From a virus, in the IMG/VR virus record IMGVR_UViG_3300045988_089644: a DNA stretch of 41,619 nt; one strand, written 5' to 3'. Below the pieces are notes generated by a model. The model was not told the origin of the DNA and made no database searches. It saw nothing but the letters and a program-made list of their open reading frames with translations. Positions 1 to 41,619 of the stretch are shown here, in pieces (position 1 is the stretch's first letter; the number at the start of each line of letters is the position of its first letter). The translations under genes were made by a program, and so were the position numbers.

Positions 1-55
1 ATATATTCTTTTCATACATGACTTGAGCTAGTAATATTTTCATATGATTATTATC
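1..55. repeat. Terminal exact direct repeat, copy 1 (identical to 41565..41619); overlap of a circular or circularly permuted genome assembly
   Basis: Read directly: ATATATTCTTTTCATACATGACTTGAGCTAGTAATATTTTCATATGATTATTATC occurs at both window ends. Most of it is coding sequence of the 41410..41607 HTH gene, so it is not an intergenic att or cos site. Confidence 0.95.
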
Positions 56-142: not shown

Positions 143-814
143 ATGCAAATGAAACCGACAAAACGAATGTTGATAACTGTATTCCTTGGATTCTTAGGAG
201 TACATAAGTTTATGGATAGGAAGATTGGAATGGGGTTCTTATACCTGTTCACAATGGGACTTGGAGGTATAGGGTGGATAGTTGATTCATGTAAGGCTAT
301 CGCCGGGTGGTGCAAGTGGATTGCATCGCCAAATAAACACGCTATGGATTTTTCCAAACCTAAGGGTAGACGTTATCAGAATACCCCTTATCATCATCCA
401 GAAACGATACCTGAACCTGAACCCGTGTACAATTTCAACCAGCCTTACGATGATATGGACGGTCACACATTTGAACATTATTGTGCTGACTTATTAACTG
501 AAAACGGTTATGAGAATGTTGAAGTAACAAAAGGAAGTGGAGACCAAGGGCTTGACGTTATTGCATACCGGGATGGTGTTAAGTATGGAATACAATGTAA
601 ATGCTATTCTTCTGACATCGGAAACAAGGCTGTTCAGGAAGCATTTGCAGGTAAGACATATTATAACTGTCATGTTGCTGCAGTCTTAACGAACAGACAC
701 TTTACCAAATCGGCTAAAGAACTGGCTGAAAGTAATAAAGTATTGTTATGGGATAGGGAAAAACTAGAAGAATTTGTTCAAAATTCACATTATTACAATA
801 CTAATTACAATTAA
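143..814 (+). CDS. Membrane-anchored Mrr-type (PD-(D/E)xK) restriction endonuclease-like protein with N-terminal TM2 domain
   Basis: 223-aa ORF. RBS AGGAGG at 134-139; ATG at 143 or, better spaced, at 149. N-terminus FLGFLGVHKFMDRKIGMGFLYLFTMGLGGIGWIVD fits the TM2 two-helix domain. C-terminus GHTFEHYCADLL..GDQGLDVIAY..GIQCKCY..VLTNRHFTKSA fits the Mrr_cat core. Confidence 0.75.
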   Translation: MQMKPTKRMLITVFLGFLGVHKFMDRKIGMGFLYLFTMGLGGIGWIVDSCKAIAGWCKWIASPNKHAMDFSKPKGRRYQNTPYHHPETIPEPEPVYNFNQPYDDMDGHTFEHYCADLLTENGYENVEVTKGSGDQGLDVIAYRDGVKYGIQCKCYSSDIGNKAVQEAFAGKTYYNCHVAAVLTNRHFTKSAKELAESNKVLLWDREKLEEFVQNSHYYNTNYN

Positions 815-1070
815 GCTACGGTTGGCTACACTTTGGCTACGGTTGAAAAATTGCTAAAAGCGGCATAAATAAAGGCTGTTACGGTTGTTACGGTTACACT
901 TAATACTATATACTTATATATTTTATTTTTTTTAAGGTTTTCACCTTTAATTTTTTTACATTTTTAATTAATAAAAGAAATCCTCTTTTACCGTAGTTAC
1001 CGTAATCACCGCATAAATAAGCCATATTAACCGTAGCTTCAACCGTAGCTAACCGTAGCTTTAAGTGTAA
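811..1070. repeat. Composite iteron-like element, copy A: TACGGT-type repeats on the left, an AT-rich core, and ACCGTA(GC) repeats on the right
   Basis: Left arm: AGCTACGGTT, GGCTACGGTT, GTTACGGTT x2. Right arm: TACCGTAGT, TACCGTAAT, then AACCGTAGCT x3. 985..1070 is identical (86/86 by eye) to 26242..26327. Shared blocks GCATAAATAAAGGCT and TATACTTATATATTTT. Confidence 0.9.
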
Positions 1071-1085
1071 CAGCACGAAAAACAT

Positions 1086-4308: not shown

Positions 4309-4575
4309 CTATGCCATCATCTCATAAATCTCACACATTGCTACTTGTGCCTGTGTAATTTCCTCTTCAAGTTTTGTATTCTTTTCTGCTTGAATCTTGA
4401 TATATTCATCTTTGTTGTATTCTGTCAGATTAAATTCATATCCAGAGAATCCCGGTTGTTCACCACTCCCTGATTCGTTTACTTCTTCAATATCTGAATA
4501 AACAAAGACTTTTGTTTCTGTAATCTCTAACCCATCCGGCTTGACTGTGCTTCTCTGTTTCCCATAATCAATCAT
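4309..4575 (-). CDS. Hypothetical acidic protein downstream of the RT (XkdW/XkdX-position tail-fibre accessory protein)
   Basis: 88 aa. Overlaps the RT stop by 4 nt. No motif recognised with certainty. Confidence 0.5.
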   Translation of the reverse strand: MIDYGKQRSTVKPDGLEITETKVFVYSDIEEVNESGSGEQPGFSGYEFNLTEYNKDEYIKIQAEKNTKLEEEITQAQVAMCEIYEMMA

Positions 4576-5702
4576 GCTACTTTCTGTCCTTTCTTAGTGT
4601 ACGGTTTTATGTTGCGTATATAATAATCATCTGCATAAGGTAAAAGCGGTACAATATACTTTTGATACAGACGAAAACTATTCGCAGATTTCAATATTCC
4701 TTTATATGAATTGATTGAACACCACTCTGAATAGTTCATCGTATTGCCTGATTCTACTTTCAACCTGATTGCAGTAAGTTTCTCTTTCATTGTCATGCAG
4801 GTACTCTTTCGAACTAACGTATATTTATAAAAAGTCCTATATCCTAAGAAATCAACACCTCTAATAAATGTCGGAAATACCTGCCAGTTTGCTTTGATTG
4901 TAAGTTTCAATTCCTCACTGAAATAAATGTCAATATCTTCTTTTAATTTAAAAAGTTCTTCTTTTGTTTTCCCGAAGATAGTTATGTCGTCCATGTAACG
5001 ATAATTGTCTTTTACGTGTTTCTGTTCTTTTAACCAATGGTCGAAACTTGAAAAATAGTAATTACCTGAGTACTGTGACAAATAATTACCTATTGGTATA
5101 CCTGTTTCCCGGTCAATATCTTCTTCTAGTAAGTAGATTGCTGTCAGGTCTTCTATTTCAGCTGTTTCTACGCTGTCAATAATTTCATTCAATAACCATA
5201 ATAGTTCACTGTCGTTGAATATTTTTGCATATTTTTCTCTTAATACATCATGATTAATAGATTGATAATAATGTCTTGCATCTAGCTTTAAACAATACTT
5301 ACAATCCTCCGGACGGTTCCACATTGCATCCTGCATTTTATGTAATGCTTTGTGTATTCCTCTGCCCGGTATGGCTGAATAAGTATCAGCCGTTAAATTG
5401 TTTATGATACATGGTTCTATTACTTGTAATATCGCCCACTGACAAATACGGTCAGGAAAGTACGGCAACTTGTAAATCTTTCTTACCTTTTTCCCATCTT
5501 GCTTATGAAACACTTCATATTCAGACGTTTTGTAAGTATGCTTAATAAGCATTTCCTGAATCTCTTTCAAATACTTATCAGGGTCTTTATCAATTTCTTG
5601 AACTTCTCTGTACCAGCCTTTTCCTTTCTTTGCGTGCTTGTGCGCTAATCTCAAATTTTCAATATCATAAATTTTTTCATATAAGTGACTATATCGTTTC
5701 AT
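4572..5702 (-). CDS. Diversity-generating retroelement (DGR) reverse transcriptase
   Basis: Likely start MKRYSHLYEKIYDIENLRLAHKHAKKGK at 5700-5702. Motifs IGNYLSQ (the DGR-typical [ILV]GxxxSQ) and YMDD. Sits directly 3' of a TR/VR pair. Confidence 0.9.
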   Translation of the reverse strand: MKRYSHLYEKIYDIENLRLAHKHAKKGKGWYREVQEIDKDPDKYLKEIQEMLIKHTYKTSEYEVFHKQDGKKVRKIYKLPYFPDRICQWAILQVIEPCIINNLTADTYSAIPGRGIHKALHKMQDAMWNRPEDCKYCLKLDARHYYQSINHDVLREKYAKIFNDSELLWLLNEIIDSVETAEIEDLTAIYLLEEDIDRETGIPIGNYLSQYSGNYYFSSFDHWLKEQKHVKDNYRYMDDITIFGKTKEELFKLKEDIDIYFSEELKLTIKANWQVFPTFIRGVDFLGYRTFYKYTLVRKSTCMTMKEKLTAIRLKVESGNTMNYSEWCSINSYKGILKSANSFRLYQKYIVPLLPYADDYYIRNIKPYTKKGQKVA

Positions 5703-5925
5703 TTTACATTTATCTTTTGTTTTTTTGGTATTTGCAAGTCCGAATCCCAGTCGGCAATTCACCCGGTCGATACGGTTGACATTTCCTTATTTTTTATAAG
5801 TAAAGCGGTATTCTCTTTTGGGGTTGTCATGCACCGCTTATTTTTCTGTTTTGTCGAGTGGCAAGGTTGAAAGAACATATACATGAAAATAGCCGGACAT
5901 GACATCCGGCTGTGTTTTTTTGCAA

Positions 5926-6038
5926 ATATTAAGTGACCCCTGATATTCCGATTACGATTACTGACACTGTTATTCAGATTCCAATAGAACGTACCTGCAT
6001 TAGACCAATTATTCCAATTACTGCCTAGTTGAGTGATT
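5926..6038 (-). repeat. DGR template repeat (TR)
   Basis: 113-bp alignment to 6187..6299 (offset 261). All 26 mismatches fall at plus-strand T in the TR, which is A on the transcribed minus strand. Confidence 0.9.
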
Positions 6039-6115
6039 GTTTTTTCTTTCATTACAGGTAACAATGAATTATCAGAAATTCTTTCAACCTAATTAGTTTA
6101 AAAGTTACAATAAAA

Positions 6116-8335
6116 TCATGCTGTTATCTGAGATTTCCATGAGGCGATTGCAGTAGTATAAGCATCTGAATCACGGTCAGGAATATATACCAAGCGACCC
6201 CCGATACTCCGAGTACGACCACCGACACCGTCATTCAGAAACCAATAGAACGCACCCGCATTAGACCAATAAGACCAAAGACCGCCCAGCCGAGCGATAC
6301 GGTAACCATTCAAATTCCGTGTGAGATATGTATAATCACCAACAGGCAACGAACTATTACCCAATGTTTCCGATGCAATAAACAGCCAGTCGAATTTTGT
6401 AGAATATCCCATTGCTGAGATATACCCCTCTTTAGGTGCTACAGTGAATCCAGCAGGTTCATAATTTCCGCTGTTTTTATTCTCAGCAAAATTGAAATCA
6501 GAACAAATGTAAGGCTGTCCACCGTCCATTTTTCCATTACCCCAAATACTGATACCGTATACAAATTTCCAAATGTTACCCCAAAAGTTTTCTTTACCTC
6601 TCCAACATACGGAAGTCTTACTGTCAACAGTGTATTCTTTAGCAGAACCGCCCTCGTATGTAGTTGTTTTTTCTGCTCTACCTGTTCCATTGCCAAGTGC
6701 AGCGGTTGAACCTGTAGCAGCTGCATATGAACTTGTAGTATCATCTCCTGTACTATACGGTAACCCTACAACACCTTGACCGACACCAGTTTGTGTGTTC
6801 ATGATTCCAAGTTCAATAATCATTAATAACTGTTCAGCCGACACAGGTTTGATTAAATCGCCATGCCAGTTAGTACCTCTATTTTGTGCCATTTTTTCAA
6901 TTTCGGTTCTTGTAAGATTCTGTGAAGAACCAGATGCAGGTCTTGCGCCTGCGATACTTGAAAATTTATCTTCTGCGGAAGACATAAGCTGTTCGTCTTG
7001 TAAAAGATAAGCCGCTGCACTCGTATCATAAAGACTACCTTCGTATGTAGCTGTCAGATAATAATCAATCTCTTTTCCTGACGCATCATAAAAAGCCGGA
7101 TGCAGTCTAAAACCTGCACGTGGTTTTTCACATACATAATAGTTTGCCTTTCTCAGATGATAACCAATGCCTGTATCAATCGGATCATATTCTACCGGGC
7201 AAACTAAATAATAGAATTTTGGTTGATATACCATAACCTGCCCGTTTGAACCATCTTCTGTATAATTATTATCACCGTACCATGCGTTGATAGTTCCATC
7301 GTCCGCAACATTACATTTACGTCTACCACCGTACATACTGAATTTGTCGAAGTCACTTCCCGGTGTCAGATTTGCCGCACCTGCTAACCTCTTAAATGTT
7401 TTATTTTTATAATCTACTTGCAAACCTACAATATCATCTGCTGTAAGCCCTAAATATGCTCTTAAGTCAGCAACACCTGATAAGATTTCCTGACTGTTAA
7501 AGTTCTCACTTTTCAGTTCTTCGATGTTTGACGCGGCTGAACTATTTTCACTCTGTAATGACTGTAAAACATTATTACTCGTGCTTGTACTATTATCTAA
7601 ATCCGTCTTAGTCTGATTTGCTTTTGTGATACTTTCATCAAGTTCAGTCTTTTTCACTGAACTAGACTGAATACTTTTATCTAAATCAGTTTTAGATGTG
7701 TCGGAAGTTTTGACACTTGCATCTAACGCTGACTTTGCCGTATTAGCGTTAGTAATAGTTTCATTAAGTGATTTCTTCGCCGCATTAGCGGCGGTGTCAA
7801 TCTCTGTAATCTTGCTAGATGTATAATTATTAATCTCTTTTTCAGCTGTTACCTTTTGGTCGGTAATATATGATGATGTACTGTTTTCAACCTTTTGTAC
7901 TGATGCGTTTGCCTGCGCTTCTACTGCGGAAACAGCTTTCTGTTTCGCCGCATTAGCGGCGGTGTCAATCTCTGTTGTTTTACTTTCAACATGACTGTCA
8001 AAAGTACTTACAATATTATTGATATTCTGTTCTGACTGTTTTGCAGCCTGCTGTGATGATGATGCACTACTCGCTGCGGAACTTGCGGAACTTGCCGCAT
8101 TTGCGGCTTTATTTGCATTTTCTTTTACTTCTTTATGTTTCTGTGTAACATCTGACTGCATTTTGGTGATTTCAGTTTTAATTGTTTCTACAGTTTTTTT
8201 ATCATCTGCCACCTGTGTAGCCGATTCAGCAAAATTTGCCAAAACTTCTCCGAATTCTTCTTTTGTACCTGTGTACCCGTGTGCTTTTGCATCAGCATAA
8301 GCGGTAACTGTACCTAAATTTGTTTTTATACTCAT
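6116..8335 (-). CDS. Tail fibre / receptor-binding protein; DGR target with C-terminal CLec-type variable domain
   Basis: 739 aa. N-terminal fibre-like region with Ala/Ser-rich coiled segments and a repeated TEIDTAANAAK block. The C-terminus GGLWSYWSNAGAFYWFLNDGVGGRTRSIGGRLVY carries the VR. Confidence 0.85.
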   Translation of the reverse strand: MSIKTNLGTVTAYADAKAHGYTGTKEEFGEVLANFAESATQVADDKKTVETIKTEITKMQSDVTQKHKEVKENANKAANAASSASSAASSASSSQQAAKQSEQNINNIVSTFDSHVESKTTEIDTAANAAKQKAVSAVEAQANASVQKVENSTSSYITDQKVTAEKEINNYTSSKITEIDTAANAAKKSLNETITNANTAKSALDASVKTSDTSKTDLDKSIQSSSVKKTELDESITKANQTKTDLDNSTSTSNNVLQSLQSENSSAASNIEELKSENFNSQEILSGVADLRAYLGLTADDIVGLQVDYKNKTFKRLAGAANLTPGSDFDKFSMYGGRRKCNVADDGTINAWYGDNNYTEDGSNGQVMVYQPKFYYLVCPVEYDPIDTGIGYHLRKANYYVCEKPRAGFRLHPAFYDASGKEIDYYLTATYEGSLYDTSAAAYLLQDEQLMSSAEDKFSSIAGARPASGSSQNLTRTEIEKMAQNRGTNWHGDLIKPVSAEQLLMIIELGIMNTQTGVGQGVVGLPYSTGDDTTSSYAAATGSTAALGNGTGRAEKTTTYEGGSAKEYTVDSKTSVCWRGKENFWGNIWKFVYGISIWGNGKMDGGQPYICSDFNFAENKNSGNYEPAGFTVAPKEGYISAMGYSTKFDWLFIASETLGNSSLPVGDYTYLTRNLNGYRIARLGGLWSYWSNAGAFYWFLNDGVGGRTRSIGGRLVYIPDRDSDAYTTAIASWKSQITA
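6187..6299 (-). repeat. DGR variable repeat (VR) inside the fibre gene
   Basis: See the TR entry. It lies in the last ~60 codons of the 6116..8335 gene. Confidence 0.9.
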
Positions 8336-26048: not shown

Positions 26049-26327
26049 TCTTAAGTGTTACGGTTAAGCTACACTTAAGCTACGGTTAAATAAGCAACCG
26101 TAACACTCAAAAACCGCATAAATAAAGGCTCTCAGAGTTTGTGTTACACAAGCTACGCTTAAATGCCCTATACTTATATATTTTTTATATTATTACTATT
26201 TATATAATTACTAATAAATTAAAAAAATAAAGAACATATCGTTTTACCGTAGTTACCGTAATCACCGCATAAATAAGCCATATTAACCGTAGCTTCAACC
26301 GTAGCTAACCGTAGCTTTAAGTGTAAC
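26049..26327. repeat. Composite iteron-like element, copy B
   Basis: Same architecture as 811..1070. 26242..26327 is identical to 985..1070. Shared GCTACACTTAAGCTACGGTT, GCATAAATAAAGGCT and TATACTTATATATTTT blocks in the diverged left part. Confidence 0.9.
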
Positions 26328-35083: not shown

Positions 35084-36410
35084 CTGTTAACTCCTTTCCT
35101 TTCTGCAATGCTGCAAGGTTCTTTTCTTCAAAACTACCCTTAACGAGTAGGTAATAATAAAAACAAGGTTTATTCTGACCGATTCGGTGAATACGTTTCT
35201 TAGACTGTTCCCATAGATCACAAGAACCTTTTCCGAGCGGTAATGTAAAGTAAATGATCTTATTTGCTTTTTGTAAATTAACCCCCATTGCGCCAGCCTG
35301 ATACTGTACAAATGTGACTGAATCAGATGCATTCTCGTATGGCAACAAATCTTTTTGTTTCCCATTCACAACTGCAATAGGTCTATTGTGTTTCCACACA
35401 ATTTTAGATAGTCTTTCCAGTTCTTCATTGAAGTTGTAGAAAACAATCAGACGGTCTTCTGTTGATTCCAGTAAGTCCTTGAAAGCATCTAACTTCTCTT
35501 TGTGATACTGACCGCACAGCTGTCTACAGTACAGTGTTTTTGTCAAGCTGTTATCCCCAATGAGTTCTACATGGGGGGTTACATCTTTACCGAAAAAGTC
35601 TGAATCATCTTTGAATCTAATCAAATTTCTCGTGTCAAGGTCTATGTAACTGTGTTTCACAAAGAATCTGTATTCATTTGTAGTCTTTAAGAAAATCTTC
35701 TGTTCAATCTGTTCAGGGAGTTCAATAACTTCTTCTGTTTTCATAAACACCGCTCCAAATTGTTTTAATCTTTTTTTCAAATGCTGCACGTTCTTATACC
35801 CCGTGATGATCTCTTGTTTAAATGCACCCTGTTCTACCCACTCAGTCTGGACATATGAAGCGTAAAACGCTTTTTTTGATATGTCCCAACCGAGTAAGCG
35901 CAACTGTGACCATAACCGTTCATATTTCCCACTGGTCGGTGTACCTGATAAAAGCACTACACTTTCAGGCTGTAATTTCAGTATGAATTTTGACCGCTTA
36001 GCCTTTTCATTTTGAATAAGGCTTGATTCATCAAGTAACAATGTAAAGTCGGTTATATGGGCTATATACTTGCGTCTGAATACCAAATCGTAATTAATAA
36101 CCCCTACAATCTGCCTATCCTCATAGAAATCTTTTGTCTCTATTAACTGTCTGAAACGTATCCCCTGCTCTTTCTTCGTTAGATTGAACACTTCATAATC
36201 CGGGTAATACGTTTCAAAGTGTTCCATCCAGTCGTCAATCTTAGATTTCTGACAGACTACCAGATTCACATTGTTGTTAAGTAACCACATCTTTTCAGCC
36301 CCTACGAAGGTTTTACCTAACCCCATGTCAAGATAATATGCGACATGGTTTTTATCTTTGGTTGCGGTAAGGGCGGTTTCCTGATGCGGCATGAAAGAAA
36401 CTACTGACAT
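35067..36410 (-). CDS. SNF2-family (DEAD-like) helicase
   Basis: 447 aa. MGLGKT Walker A, LLLDESS motif II, and C-terminal helicase motifs QYQAGAMGVNLQ and RIHRIGQ. Confidence 0.85.
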   Translation of the reverse strand: MSVVSFMPHQETALTATKDKNHVAYYLDMGLGKTFVGAEKMWLLNNNVNLVVCQKSKIDDWMEHFETYYPDYEVFNLTKKEQGIRFRQLIETKDFYEDRQIVGVINYDLVFRRKYIAHITDFTLLLDESSLIQNEKAKRSKFILKLQPESVVLLSGTPTSGKYERLWSQLRLLGWDISKKAFYASYVQTEWVEQGAFKQEIITGYKNVQHLKKRLKQFGAVFMKTEEVIELPEQIEQKIFLKTTNEYRFFVKHSYIDLDTRNLIRFKDDSDFFGKDVTPHVELIGDNSLTKTLYCRQLCGQYHKEKLDAFKDLLESTEDRLIVFYNFNEELERLSKIVWKHNRPIAVVNGKQKDLLPYENASDSVTFVQYQAGAMGVNLQKANKIIYFTLPLGKGSCDLWEQSKKRIHRIGQNKPCFYYYLLVKGSFEEKNLAALQKGKELTDELFA

Positions 36411-36721
36411 ATTAATTTGGCAAATAACATTGCTAACATACTTGTAGGTGTCTCAGGGTTCTGTGCTGCATCTGATTCGGGGTTATATTTAATGTCGAGT
36501 TCTTTAACAACCTGCTCTAATGCTAAATCTGCAAAAACATCAACAAATGCATCTGTTAACTCTTCATCTCGATGAATTTCAAGCTGTATGATTAATTTAA
36601 TTGACTTATCAATTTCCCCTTGTGGGACATCTCCACCGCATAACGCTGCACATCTGTCAACACTTCTCTGTAATTTCTCAACAATACCTTTTTTCTTAAG
36701 AAGTTCAATAAACTGATTCAT
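36401..36721 (-). CDS. Hypothetical protein
   Basis: Start MNQFIELLKK at 36719-36721 with a GAGGG RBS. The longer ORF-track version overlaps the upstream gene. Confidence 0.5.
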   Translation of the reverse strand: MNQFIELLKKKGIVEKLQRSVDRCAALCGGDVPQGEIDKSIKLIIQLEIHRDEELTDAFVDVFADLALEQVVKELDIKYNPESDAAQNPETPTSMLAMLFAKLICQ

Positions 36722-36722
36722 A

Positions 36723-37877
36723 CTATTTACCCTCACTTTCAATCTTGATACCTGTACACTGTTCGAAAATCTCAATGTCAAAATTAGGAATTGACTTGAT
36801 TTTATTTCTATCTGTTTCTGAAAGATCATTCCACCAAATCTGAGCGCATTCAGATTCATCAAGAACTTTAAGATAACCGCCTGTTGTCTTATAAGATGGA
36901 TGTGCTTTCTTTTCTTCTTCCGTCATATAATTCTCATATACCCACTCAACGACATCTTTAGGAATATCCATCAGCAAGTATCTAGCATCAGAATTTAACC
37001 AATCTCTGTATGTCCATTTGGATGGTTTATTGAACAACATGATTGTTGATTCTTCTGTGTTAAAACAACCAGTATTGAAAGAAGATTTGTTCCAGTCCCC
37101 GGTGTTTCTGTTCCCGGTGTTGCAGTCCCCGGTGTTTCTGTTCCCGGTGTTGCAGTTCCCGGTGTTGCAGTCCCCGGTGTTGCAGTCCCCGGTGTTGCAG
37201 TTCCCGGTGTTGCAGTCCCCGGTGTTCCAGTCCCCGGTGTTGCAGTCCCCGGTGTTCCAGTCCCCGGTGTTGCAGTCCCCGGTGTTGCAGTCCCCGGTGT
37301 TGCAGTTCCCGGTGTTGCAGTCCCCGGTGTTGCAGTTCCCGGTGTTTCTGTTCCCGGTGTTCCAGTCCCCGGTGTTCCAGTCCCCGGTGTTCCAGTCCCC
37401 GGTGTTGCAGTTCCCGGTGTTTCTGTTCCCGGTGTTGCAGTCCCCGGTGTTCCAGTCCCCGGTGTTTCTGTTCCCGGTGTTCCAGTCCCCGGTGTTTCTG
37501 TTCCCGGTGTTGCAGTCCCCGGTGTTGCAGTCCCCGGTGTTGCAGTCCCCGGTGTTGCAGAGTCCTGTACAACTCTTTCCTGTATTTACGATAGTTAAGA
37601 GTTCCTGCCATGGGATTTCACGAACTATTTTGATTTTATTCGTACAGCACTTATCATCACCTCTTACGATGTCACCGTATGCGATAACTTCCGCTACCTT
37701 ATTGTCAGGATTAAAGCTATAATAATTAAAACAATCCGCTGCATTCTCACAAAAATGAAAACCTCTGTCACAACAACTTGGTTCAACATCTTCTTCAAAG
37801 ATTTTTCCTACCTCATACTGGAAACCTCTGCAAGTCCAATCTGGATTAAAAACCTTAAATCCTCTTACTTCGTTCAT
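36723..37877 (-). CDS. Pentapeptide-repeat protein: conserved Cys-rich N-terminal domain, about 31 perfect G(D/N)(C/W/R)NT repeats, and a C-terminal domain
   Basis: Start MNEVRGFKVFNPDW at 37877 with a GAGAGG RBS. N-terminal domain FKVFNPDWTCRGFQYEVGK...CDRGFHFCEN. The repeat run NTGDC/NTGDW/NTGNR was read directly. Confidence 0.8.
   Translation of the reverse strand: MNEVRGFKVFNPDWTCRGFQYEVGKIFEEDVEPSCCDRGFHFCENAADCFNYYSFNPDNKVAEVIAYGDIVRGDDKCCTNKIKIVREIPWQELLTIVNTGKSCTGLCNTGDCNTGDCNTGDCNTGNRNTGDWNTGNRNTGDWNTGDCNTGNRNTGNCNTGDWNTGDWNTGDWNTGNRNTGNCNTGDCNTGNCNTGDCNTGDCNTGDWNTGDCNTGDWNTGDCNTGNCNTGDCNTGDCNTGNCNTGNRNTGDCNTGNRNTGDWNKSSFNTGCFNTEESTIMLFNKPSKWTYRDWLNSDARYLLMDIPKDVVEWVYENYMTEEEKKAHPSYKTTGGYLKVLDESECAQIWWNDLSETDRNKIKSIPNFDIEIFEQCTGIKIESEGK
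37091..37560 (-). repeat. Tandem array of about 31 x 15 bp (CCCGGTGTTnCAGTn on the plus strand) encoding the pentapeptide repeats
   Basis: Visible as near-identical 15-mers across eight sequence lines. All six frames are open across it. Confidence 0.95.
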
Positions 37878-37901
37878 TTCTGTTACCTCTCTTTCTCGAC
37901 C

Positions 37902-38048
37902 TAGTTTTCGCATACTTCAATGTTAATAATTCTCGCTGAACTATGTGTTTTCTTGAAATTTTCTTTTACTTCTTCCTCGCTTGCAGCCCTGCCATACCAT
38001 TCGGATGTATAACAGTTCTGTCCATAATAAACTCTATATAATCTCATG
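37902..38048 (-). CDS. Hypothetical protein (48 aa, below the ORF-track cutoff)
   Basis: Hand translation: MRLYRVYYGQNCYTSEWYGRAASEEEVKENFKKTHSSARIINIEVCEN. AGAGAGGA RBS upstream. Confidence 0.45.
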
Positions 38049-40260: not shown

Positions 40261-40342
40261 CTCTTCACCTCACTTTCTATGACCTGCCATCATCAGTACC
40301 GGGAGGTCATTCCCGGCAGACGGTCATTTCTGACCGTTTCGG

Positions 40343-40576
40343 CTAATTTGAAATGTTCTGCAATCCTGCAATCACAAGTGCAAGTGATGTTATTCCGTTG
40401 TTTTCTTTTTTTGCCTGAGCCGTCAATGCTGAATAAAGTTCATGAGGTATATTCTTCGTGCCGTTTAAAACTGCTAAACATTCATCGTAGGTTAATAAAT
40501 TAATCATTTCTTTCGCCTGCTCAATATTTTCAAGCTTATCAATTTTCTTATTTGCTAAATCTTCTCTTGTTATCAT
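40343..40576 (-). CDS. First early-operon protein (Cro position, no obvious HTH)
   Basis: 77 aa. AGGAGGAAAAC RBS. Immediately downstream of the divergent promoter/operator region. Confidence 0.55.
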   Translation of the reverse strand: MITREDLANKKIDKLENIEQAKEMINLLTYDECLAVLNGTKNIPHELYSALTAQAKKENNGITSLALVIAGLQNISN

Positions 40577-41409: not shown

Positions 41410-41607
41410 TTATTTTATATTTGTCTCAAAAAGGTCTGTTATCTGACAATTCAGAGCAATAGCAAGTTTTTCAAGTGTCCGAATCTTCGGGTTAGAATCT
41501 TCGTTCATATCATCCTGAATAGTTGACTTTGGTACTCCTGATTTAAGGGAAAGCTGCCTAATGGATATATTCTTTTCATACATGACTTGAGCTAGTAATA
41601 TTTTCAT
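41410..41607 (-). CDS. Small XRE-family HTH regulator, divergent from the TM2-Mrr gene on the circular map
   Basis: 65 aa. ISIRQLSLKSGVPKSTIQDDMN is the HTH. No clear SD. The 5' end lies in the terminal repeat. Confidence 0.7.
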   Translation of the reverse strand: MKILLAQVMYEKNISIRQLSLKSGVPKSTIQDDMNEDSNPKIRTLEKLAIALNCQITDLFETNIK

Positions 41608-41619
41608 ATGATTATTATC
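41565..41619. repeat. Terminal exact direct repeat, copy 2
   Basis: Identical to 1..55. Confidence 0.95.

What the first reader, a model, noticed from the sequence alone, without database searches (positions are those of the whole stretch)
4572..8335. Complete diversity-generating retroelement retargeting the tail fibre (VR, TR and RT all present)
I aligned 5926-6038 (TR) to 6187-6299 (VR) by hand at a constant offset of 261.
- The alignment covers 113 positions with 26 mismatches.
- Every mismatch is at a plus-strand T of the TR, which is an A on the transcribed minus strand. No other base differs.
- The homology ends at non-A mismatches on both flanks.
- The VR encodes LGGLWSYWSNAGAFYWFLNDGVGGRTRSIGGRL in the last ~60 aa of the 739-aa fibre.
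- The TR reads LGSNWNNWSNAGTFYWNLNNSVSNRNRNIRGHL, with Asn AAY codons at the diversified sites.
- The next gene downstream is an RT with IGNYLSQ and YMDD motifs.
This is the adenine-mutagenesis signature of DGRs, here in a Firmicutes siphovirus.
Basis: partly seen in the sequence, partly recalled or inferred. Interest (0 to 1): 0.85.

Follow-up and report, generated by a model that had tools for sequence, protein, structure and literature searches.

The report
Phage retroelement that diversifies its tail fibre
This gut-bacterium phage carries a working copy of a known mutagenic system, a diversity-generating retroelement, which rewrites the tip of its tail fibre at about a dozen chosen residues; it is a clear but ordinary example of a well-described class.

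Summary
TR 5926-6038 and VR 6187-6299 align at offset 261. All 26 mismatches fall on template adenines of the coding (minus) strand (P about 1e-16).

- **RT:** the adjacent RT is closest to Bordetella phage bRT among solved structures. It keeps bRT's catalytic and template-contact residues and the IGxxxSQ motif.
- **Target:** the last 410 aa of the 739-aa target model confidently (pLDDT 89.7). The best structural matches are the DGR variable proteins TaqVP, Mtd and TvpA (C-type lectin fold).
- **Activity in nature:** 120 metagenomic homologues are 98.5% identical outside the VR. They carry 118 different VR peptides, hypervariable exactly at the ten TR AAY codons. Twenty-seven proteins with one identical backbone have 27 different VRs.
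- **Relatives:** at least 60 of 71 related RT loci have the same VR-TR-RT layout.

Refinements:
- No Avd gene is present. This is the known accessory-less "A1" architecture.
- The last 16 nt of the VR are a fixed IMH-like segment.
- The RT probably starts at ATG 5702.
- The 223-nt TR-RT spacer is a structured RNA. Covariation supports a duplex, stem-loop and A-run resembling BPP-1's "cPRT Stop".

Verdict: a real, apparently active DGR, and a new member of a known kind.

The parts
6116..8335 (-). Target gene, 739 aa. About residues 1-330 are a coiled-coil-like shaft. Residues 330-739 are a receptor-binding module with a DGR-type C-type lectin fold.
   Evidence: ORF. PHROG 5302 'tail protein' E 6.6e-87. 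The N-terminal part gives weak SMC-like coiled-coil hits. A profile of the C-terminal module hits TaqVP 5vf4, E 1.8e-9. The AF2 model has pLDDT 89.7 and pTM 0.93. Foldseek ranks TaqVP first, then Mtd and TvpA.
6203..6298 (-). Variable region proper (codons 680-711); receives adenine-mutagenised cDNA.
   Evidence: There are 22 A-specific differences from the TR here. In 120 homologues the ten AAY-templated codons carry 7-13 residue types.
6187..6202 (-). IMH-like 3' end of the VR (GGGGGTCGCTTGGTAT). It differs from the TR at 4 adenines and is effectively never varied.
   Evidence: Codons 712-716 are invariant in the 120 homologues apart from one H at residue 714. The same G-for-A differences are fixed in 15 of the 16 related loci printed; L028 keeps the TR-like A at one of them.
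6079..6090 (-). Upstream strand (AGGUUGAAAGAA) of a 12-bp duplex that brackets the TR in the RNA.
   Evidence: It is perfectly complementary to 5864-5875. The equivalent pairing covaries across 41 lineages (cognate mean 7.9 vs non-cognate 6.5 bp, 0 of 5000 permutations). The MFE fold also recovers it.
5926..6038 (-). Template region (TR). The last 16 nt, 5926-5941 (AGGGGTCACTTAATAT), are the IMH*-like end.
   Evidence: An identical TR occurs in the independent contig L001 with a different VR. Eight other contigs share one TR with eight different VRs.
5920..5928 (-). 5' strand (UAUUUGCAA) of a long-range helix at the TR 3' boundary.
   Evidence: It pairs with 5729-5737. The pairing covaries across the clade (6.3 vs 5.1 bp, 0 of 5000 permutations). 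RNAalifold also predicts it, with an AU to GC compensatory change.
5891..5911 (-). 9-bp hairpin just 3' of the TR.
   Evidence: It is kept with compensatory changes in L019 and L020. It is not present in all distant relatives.
5864..5875 (-). Downstream strand (UUCUUUCAACCU) of the TR-bracketing duplex.
5838..5863 (-). Conserved 4-bp stem-loop (UGCC-ACUC-GACA) followed by an A-rich run.
   Evidence: It is found directly after the duplex strand in 24 lineages, with six different stem sequences: UGCC/GGCA, UGGC/GCCA, UACC/GGUA, UAGC/GCUA, CGCC/GGCG and UGUC/GACA. The window copy has one C-A mismatch.
5803..5839 (-). Hairpin P3 (AAGCGGU...ACCGCUU), specific to the close family.
   Evidence: RNAalifold pairs 103-145 with compensatory AU/GC and GC/AU changes.
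5740..5775 (-). Stem domain P4/P5, with a hairpin of variable length.
   Evidence: RNAalifold pairs 182-227 and 194-214 with compensatory changes.
5729..5737 (-). 3' strand (UUGCAAAUA) of the long-range helix, 27-35 nt upstream of the RT start.
4572..5702 (-). DGR reverse transcriptase, 376 aa from ATG 5702. The mechanical ORF extends to GTG 5762.
   Evidence: RVT_1, E 7.6e-17. PHROG 1423, E 3e-109. Best PDB match is 8ub7 (bRT), E 2.2e-22. BPP-1 brt matches at 30% identity, E 4e-21. Ten key bRT residues are conserved. Homology in most related loci begins at residue 20-21 of the long ORF.

Best explanation
This is a functional diversity-generating retroelement of the accessory-less (target-TR-RT, 'A1') architecture. 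It sits in the tail module of a temperate phage of a Lachnospiraceae host, probably Anaerobutyricum soehngenii.

Proposed mechanism:
1. The minus strand is transcribed through the TR and the 223-nt spacer.
2. The RNA folds so that a 12-bp duplex (6079-6090 with 5864-5875), an adjacent stem-loop and an A-run bracket the TR.
3. A second long-range helix ties the TR 3' boundary (5920-5928) to 5729-5737.
4. The RT copies the TR into cDNA and misincorporates opposite adenines.
5. The cDNA replaces VR 6203-6298 in the fibre gene.
6. The fixed IMH-like 16 nt (6187-6202) sets the direction of transfer and is not overwritten.
7. Ten AAY codons and several partly variable codons thus rewrite the ligand-binding face of a C-type lectin domain at the fibre tip, changing receptor specificity.

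Shown here: the repeat anatomy, RT kinship, target fold, hypervariability in nature restricted to TR-adenine codons, and covariation of the RNA helices.

Inferred by analogy with Bordetella phage BPP-1: self-primed reverse transcription, the roles of the RNA elements, the IMH function, and the effect on host range.
For: TR/VR pair:
- All 26 mismatches are at TR adenines, P 1e-16.

RT:
- Best solved relative is bRT 8ub7, ahead of group II and retron RTs.
- It matches BPP-1 brt, hankyphage, crAss-like and Faecalibacterium phage RTs.
- K29, F66, R74, I76, D138, I181, G182, Q187, D215 and D216 of bRT are all conserved (residue roles).
- IGNYLSQ aligns with bRT IGSLTSQ, versus QGGPLSP in a group II RT.

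Related loci:
- A TR/VR pair with at least 80% A-specific mismatches lies just upstream of the RT in at least 60 of 71 related loci.
- Over 126 distinct pairs, 62.9% of TR adenines differ, versus 0.6-0.8% of C, G and T.

Population:
- 120 homologues are 98.5% identical outside the VR and 70.9% inside, with 118 distinct VR peptides.
- Every residue at the ten AAY codons is reachable by adenine substitution.
- 27, 18, 7 and 6 proteins with identical backbones carry 27, 18, 7 and 6 distinct VRs.
- TRs are identical between contigs whose VRs differ.
- RT-less relatives (L134=L135, L139=L141) have identical VR-equivalents.

Fold:
-.

RNA:
-, with the BPP-1 description.
Against: - No Avd homologue is present in the window, although Avd is essential in BPP-1. 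Wu et al. 2018 report that 29% of DGRs lack accessory genes.
- No GC-rich inverted repeat lies downstream of the VR (z 0.57).
- No promoter stands out upstream of the TR.
- Activity in this particular genome cannot be shown without reads.
- The population evidence comes from different samples.
- The RT-less control has only two pairs of contigs.
- The hairpin set was selected by requiring pairing, so its covariation count is partly circular.
Confidence: 0.95

Rival explanations
1. The DGR is real but is a fossil in this genome. The VR differences are relics of past activity and the element no longer diversifies.
For: There are no reads to show heterogeneity in the source sample. No Avd gene is present. 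One relative (L084) has lost all but a 27-aa RT remnant, so decay does occur in this lineage.
Against: The RT ORF is intact with all catalytic and template-contact residues. The TR keeps all ten AAY codons. Identical backbones carry all-different VRs, so turnover is faster than any other substitution in 702 aa. The TR in L001 is identical to the window's while its VR differs.
Confidence: 0.04
2. The RT belongs to another retroelement or defence system (group II intron, retron, DRT/Abi), and the TR/VR repeat is an unrelated duplication of the fibre 3' end that has drifted.
For: NCBIfam's best-scoring model is the group II intron RT/maturase, at 97.7 bits. PADLOC gives generic RT and DRT (UG17) hits.
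Against: All of those scores are far below their curated cut-offs: 97.7 vs 300, Drt3a 44 vs 200, retron 29 vs 235. No group II intron or retron RNA is found by Rfam. The closest solved structure is bRT. Drift cannot put 26 of 26 differences on one base (P 1e-16), nor keep that pattern in at least 60 related loci.
Confidence: 0.01
3. VR hypervariability comes from RT-independent processes, such as recombination between fibre alleles or diversifying selection on point mutations.
For: Phage fibre tips are classic hot spots of recombination and positive selection. Backbones also show some allelic variation, with 58 backbone types.
Against: Variation is confined to codons whose template has adenines. 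Only residues reachable by A-substitution occur at the ten hypervariable codons. Non-A positions differ at under 1%. The invariant TR explains the pattern.
Confidence: 0.01

Closest known systems
Bordetella phage BPP-1 DGR (mtd-avd-TR-brt)
   Same: - Adenine-specific TR to VR transfer into the 3' end of a tail-fibre gene with a C-type lectin tip.
- The RT shares 30% identity and all ten checked active-site and template-contact residues.
- The 3' end of the VR is a fixed IMH-like segment.
- The RNA has a duplex between sequences upstream and downstream of the TR, followed by a short stem-loop and adenosines, like the 'cPRT Stop'.
   Different: - There is no avd gene.
- No GC-rich hairpin follows the VR.
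- The order of RNA elements differs. Here the strand that pairs with the TR 3' end lies at the far 3' end of the spacer, next to the RT start. In BPP-1 it lies just 5' of the Stop strand.
- The target is a 739-aa fibre with a long coiled-coil shaft, and its C-terminal module is closer to TaqVP than to Mtd.
Accessory-less DGRs: Architecture A1 and 'Lineage 3' of Wu et al. 2018 (NAR 46:11, PMC5758913)
   Same: The layout is target(VR)-TR-RT with no accessory gene. That paper reports this for 29% of 372 DGRs and infers Avd-independent homing. The relatives found here share the layout, with only 35-165 nt between the adjacent VR and the TR.
   Different: I did not place this RT in that paper's tree, so membership of Lineage 3 specifically is untested.
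TaqVP, variable protein of a Thermus aquaticus prophage DGR (PDB 5VF4)
   Same: It is the best sequence-profile match (E 1.8e-9, including the VR segment) and the best structural match (Foldseek E 1.5e-10, prob 1.00). It has the FGE-subtype C-type lectin fold with the VR at the C-terminal end.
   Different: Identity is only 16% and TM-score about 0.46-0.50. TaqVP is a single-domain 381-aa monomer from an Avd-containing DGR. Here the module is fused to a fibre shaft.
Gut phage DGRs (Roux et al. 2021 viral clades 1, 4 and 6; hankyphage; Faecalibacterium phages)
   Same: These are phage-encoded, come from the human gut, target tail proteins with C-Lec folds, and appear constantly active in populations.
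   Different: The host genus (Anaerobutyricum) and this particular phage have no close match among 50,697 GenBank phage records. Relatives are abundant in IMG/VR and ENA metagenomes.

Membership tests
Diversity-generating retroelement | Template/variable near-repeat whose differences are (almost) all at template adenines. | tested here: met
   26 of 26 mismatches are at TR adenines, P 1e-16.
Diversity-generating retroelement | RT of the DGR clade, with motif 4 [LIV]GxxxSQ, adjacent to the TR. | tested here: met
   IGNYLSQ aligns to bRT IGSLTSQ. bRT is the best PDB hit, E 2.2e-22, versus 2.6e-12 for group II. Ten bRT functional residues are conserved. No formal phylogeny was made.
Diversity-generating retroelement | VR inside a protein-coding target, with template adenines at first and second codon positions (AAY). 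| tested here: met
   The VR covers codons 680-716 of a 739-aa ORF. The TR has ten AAY Asn codons, and no stop codon is reachable from them.
Diversity-generating retroelement | TR invariant while the VR varies among close relatives, with variation restricted to TR-adenine sites. | tested here: met
   This was shown across public assemblies, not within the source sample.
Diversity-generating retroelement | IMH/IMH* element at the 3' end that sets the direction of transfer, with a nearby inverted repeat in BPP-1. | tested here: inconclusive
   A fixed 16-nt 3' segment with a G-rich core differs from the TR at 4 adenines in nearly all relatives. No significant hairpin lies downstream of the VR. 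Function is untested.
Diversity-generating retroelement | Accessory protein Avd. It is present in about 74% of DGRs and is not universal. | tested here: not met
   No Avd-like family was hit in 38 window ORFs scanned with Pfam. There is no room between VR and TR. The 88-aa gene after the RT also follows the fibre gene in RT-less phages, so it is not an accessory. Wu et al. 2018 describe accessory-less DGRs.
Diversity-generating retroelement | Variable protein with a C-type lectin (FGE-subtype) fold that presents the VR. | tested here: met
   The profile hits TaqVP. The AF2 model has pLDDT 89.7. Foldseek's top hits are TaqVP, Mtd, TvpA and FGE. Positions of variable residues on the model were not inspected.
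Diversity-generating retroelement | Structured RNA around the TR: duplex of upstream and downstream segments, stem-loop, adenosines. | tested here: met
   Covariation is shown, and the description of the BPP-1 elements is. Equivalence of function is inferred.
Group II intron | RT/maturase reaching the family cut-off, plus intron RNA domains. | tested here: not met
   TIGR04416 scores 97.7 bits against a cut-off of 300. There is no group II intron match in Rfam.
Retron or defence-associated RT (DRT/UG) | RT reaching the family cut-off, plus msr/msd RNA or an effector gene. | tested here: not met
   Retron St85 RT scores 28.6 vs 235 and Drt3a 44.4 vs 200. PADLOC gives only generic RT-level hits. 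No retron RNA is found in Rfam.

The most novel reading that the evidence does not exclude
This clade of Avd-less DGRs keeps the BPP-1-type 'Stop' module (bracketing duplex, stem-loop, A-run). However, the module is wired differently. The TR 3' boundary pairs with the extreme 3' end of the spacer, 27-35 nt before the RT start codon, and not with a segment just 5' of the Stop strand. If that helix is the template:primer duplex, then priming in Avd-independent DGRs uses a permuted RNA topology. Because the helix lies beside the RT translation start, it could couple RT translation to cDNA initiation. The published survey of DGR RNA elements covered essentially Avd-containing DGRs, so this would be a new description.
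Probability: 0.3. Interest if true: 0.55.

Novelty: new member of a known kind. Interest (0 to 1): 0.3.

Why it matters
- It is a clean natural example of targeted hypermutation in a prophage of a butyrate-producing gut commensal. Hundreds of public variants already show which fibre residues are rewritten.
- It gives a compact system of RT plus roughly 420 nt of RNA, with no Avd, for asking how accessory-less DGRs prime and stop reverse transcription.
- The covarying helices mapped here give specific mutations to test.
- As biology it confirms what is already known about gut phage DGRs rather than changing it.

Tried and rejected
- **Megablast against GenBank phages:** the 4.1-kb region gave no match.
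- **Pfam and NCBIfam on the target:** no informative domain, even on the last 194 aa at E up to 1. The fold had to be shown by profile and structure.
- **The 101-aa ORF over the TR (5759-6064):** treated as spurious. Its weak DUF7153 hit probably reflects the TR being a copy of the VR coding sequence.
- **The 88-aa gene downstream of the RT as a possible accessory protein:**
  - It follows the RT in relatives down to 45% RT identity.
  - It has no GenBank phage match.
  - Rejected, because in L134, L135, L139 and L141 it follows the fibre gene directly with no RT.
- **Hairpin or cruciform downstream of the VR:** none.
- **Promoter scan:** no more sites than in shuffles.
- **Rfam on the region:** nothing relevant.
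- **Covariance model of the whole spacer:** I used RNAalifold and cognate versus non-cognate helix tests instead.
- **One count of structure pairs:** failed on a column count and was not repeated, because MAFFT placed the loop-length gap inside the stem.
- **A wide-window duplexfold test:** noisy, so replaced by the contiguous-helix test.
- **GTDB species representatives:** none closer than 51% RT identity, so the host came from a named MAG instead.


Full report
**Observation**

- At a constant offset of 261, positions 5926-6038 and 6187-6299 match at 87 of 113 positions.
- All 26 mismatches are at a + strand T of the first copy, which is an A on the coding minus strand.
- With 38 T in that copy, the chance of this is 1.0e-16.
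- The repeat finder and a self-BLAST of the whole window recover the same pair and no second VR-like copy.
- The ORFs are as described: a 739-aa gene at 6116-8335(-) that holds the second copy near its 3' end, and an RT ORF at 4572-5762(-) directly downstream of the first copy.

**The reverse transcriptase**

- Pfam gives RVT_1 and PHROGs gives family 1423, E 3e-109.
- Curated NCBIfam models for group II intron RT, Drt3a and retron RT all score far below their cut-offs: 97.7 vs 300, 44.4 vs 200 and 28.6 vs 235.
- Among solved structures the best match is 8ub7_A, E 2.2e-22, ahead of a group II intron RT at 2.6e-12.
- The residue numbering of 8ub7_A agrees with the published description of Bordetella phage bRT, and BPP-1 brt itself matches at 30% identity.
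- K29, F66, R74, I76, D138, I181, G182, Q187, D215 and D216 of bRT are all conserved.
- IGNYLSQ aligns with bRT IGSLTSQ, where a group II RT has QGGPLSP.
- In most related loci, homology starts at residue 20-21 of the long ORF. The likely start is therefore ATG 5702, giving 376 aa.

**Relatives**

- Scans with the RT returned 52 IMG/VR loci and 19 loci from GTDB genomes.
- A simple self-BLAST screen found a repeat pair with at least 80% adenine-specific mismatches in at least 60 of the 71 loci, with the template copy just upstream of the RT. In nearly all of them the adjacent VR ends only 35-165 nt before the TR, which leaves no room for an avd gene.
- Over 126 distinct pairs, 62.9% of template adenines differ, against 0.6-0.8% of C, G and T. 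The pairs were selected for adenine bias, so this number describes the pattern rather than testing it.

**Evidence of activity in nature**

- The 120 best homologues of the target are all 739 aa and 94-99% identical.
- Their variation is concentrated in codons 681-711. The ten TR AAY codons carry 7-13 residue types each, and every residue seen there is reachable by changing adenines only.
- Identity is 98.5% outside and 70.9% inside the VR, with 118 distinct VR peptides on 58 backbones.
- Twenty-seven proteins with one identical 702-aa backbone have 27 different VRs. Smaller groups show the same: 18 of 18, 7 of 7 and 6 of 6.
- At the DNA level, eight contigs share one TR but have eight different VRs, and L001 has the window's TR with a different VR.
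- Codons 712-716 are invariant apart from a single H at residue 714. The corresponding 16 nt (6187-6202, GGGGGTCGCTTGGTAT against TR AGGGGTCACTTAATAT) carry G where the TR has A in 15 of the 16 printed relatives, as expected of an IMH/IMH* pair.
- Four phage contigs have a 55%-identical fibre module followed directly by the next gene, with no RT. In these the VR-equivalent is identical within each of two pairs of independent contigs. This is a small but apt negative control.

**The target**

- It lies in the tail module, after a candidate 998-aa tape-measure ORF (no family match; assigned from size and position), a 783-aa tail protein and a 217-aa protein. It is followed by the RT, small genes, a holin and an endolysin.
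- Pfam sees nothing in it.
- A profile of the last roughly 410 aa from diverse relatives hits TaqVP (PDB 5VF4), the variable protein of a Thermus prophage DGR, E 1.8e-9, including the VR segment.
- An AlphaFold2 model built on 127 sequences has mean pLDDT 89.7 and pTM 0.93.
- Foldseek against the PDB ranks TaqVP first (E 1.5e-10), then five Mtd variants, TvpA and formylglycine-generating enzymes. This is the FGE-subtype C-type lectin fold typical of DGR variable proteins.

**Accessory gene**

- No Avd-like family was found in 38 window ORFs.
- The 88-aa gene after the RT is conserved next to the RT in Firmicutes-type relatives. It also follows the fibre gene in the RT-less phages, so it belongs to the phage module. 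TR plus RT look like an insertion between the two.
- Wu et al. 2018 report that 29% of DGRs have this accessory-less architecture and that one RT lineage lacks avd.

**The RNA**

- The 223 nt between the TR and ATG 5702 are conserved. RNAalifold finds 42 pairs, 10 of them with compensatory changes.
- Across 41 non-redundant lineages, a segment upstream of the TR pairs with a segment downstream of it. In the window this is 6079-6090 with 5864-5875, 12 bp.
- The sequences differ between lineages but stay complementary. Cognate helices average 7.9 bp against 6.5 bp for non-cognate pairs, and no permutation out of 5000 reaches that.
- In most lineages where this duplex is clear, a 4-bp stem-loop with six different stem sequences follows directly, and then an A-run.
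- This matches the 'cPRT Stop' of BPP-1: an avd:Sp duplex, a short stem-loop, and adenosines making A-minor contacts.
- A second long-range helix joins the TR 3' boundary (5920-5928) to 5729-5737, and it also covaries (6.3 vs 5.1 bp, 0 of 5000).
- In BPP-1 the TR 3' end pairs with a spacer segment just 5' of the Stop strand and primes from its last adenosine. Here the partner lies at the far 3' end of the spacer. Whether it is the priming duplex cannot be decided from sequence.
- No hairpin follows the VR.

**Context**

- The first and last 55 nt of the window are identical, so it is a complete circular contig.
- It encodes an integrase, a lysis module, tail, head, terminase, replication and lysogeny-control genes.
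- The same prophage lies in an Anaerobutyricum soehngenii MAG, next to bacterial genes.
- Roux et al. 2021 describe phage DGRs of gut Firmicutes that target tail proteins with C-Lec folds and appear constantly active.

**Verdict**

The finding is a real and apparently active DGR. It is a new member of a known kind. The RNA wiring of this Avd-less clade is the only part that may go beyond published descriptions.

Noticed in passing
window 40278-40344 (-): Rfam type II hammerhead ribozyme, 50.5 bits against a gathering score of 37, E 1.3e-7. It lies in the lysogeny-control end of the phage.
   Followed up: no
window 986-1072 and 26241-26327 (+): An exact repeat of about 87 nt carrying five ACCGTAG-type iterons. 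It occurs in two intergenic regions, one about 140 nt upstream of the integrase gene and one near the small-terminase end of the packaging module. It may be a regulator or packaging site.
   Followed up: partly
window 1-55 and 41565-41619: Identical 55-nt ends, so the window is a circularly closed, complete phage contig.
   Followed up: no
window 36723-37913 (-): A 396-aa protein with DUF7666 plus many pentapeptide repeats. It is encoded by 15-nt periodic DNA (37088-37587), and local G+C is 0.49 against about 0.37 elsewhere. It overlaps ORF 36401-36862.
   Followed up: no
window 143-814 (+): A TM2-domain plus Mrr-type restriction-endonuclease protein next to the integrase. The nuclease part resembles the ZorD nuclease domain in PADLOC, so it may be a prophage-borne defence gene.
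   Followed up: no
window 4309-4575 (-); loci L134, L135, L139, L141, L084: The 88-aa gene (PHROG 18126, unknown function) always follows the fibre gene, with or without the RT. Four relatives lack TR and RT altogether, and L084 keeps only a 27-aa RT remnant. The TR-RT cassette is therefore gained or lost as a unit between the fibre gene and this gene.
   Followed up: yes
window 7776-7816 and 7944-7984: A 41-nt direct repeat (90% identity, 168-nt spacing), with related shorter copies, inside the fibre shaft. This points to internally repeated coiled-coil segments.
   Followed up: no
window 5700-5716 (-): Just before the RT start the sequence reads AUGUAAAAUG, a one-codon ORF (AUG UAA) two nt upstream of the RT AUG. 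No Shine-Dalgarno sequence is obvious in this family, whereas distant relatives have one.
   Followed up: no
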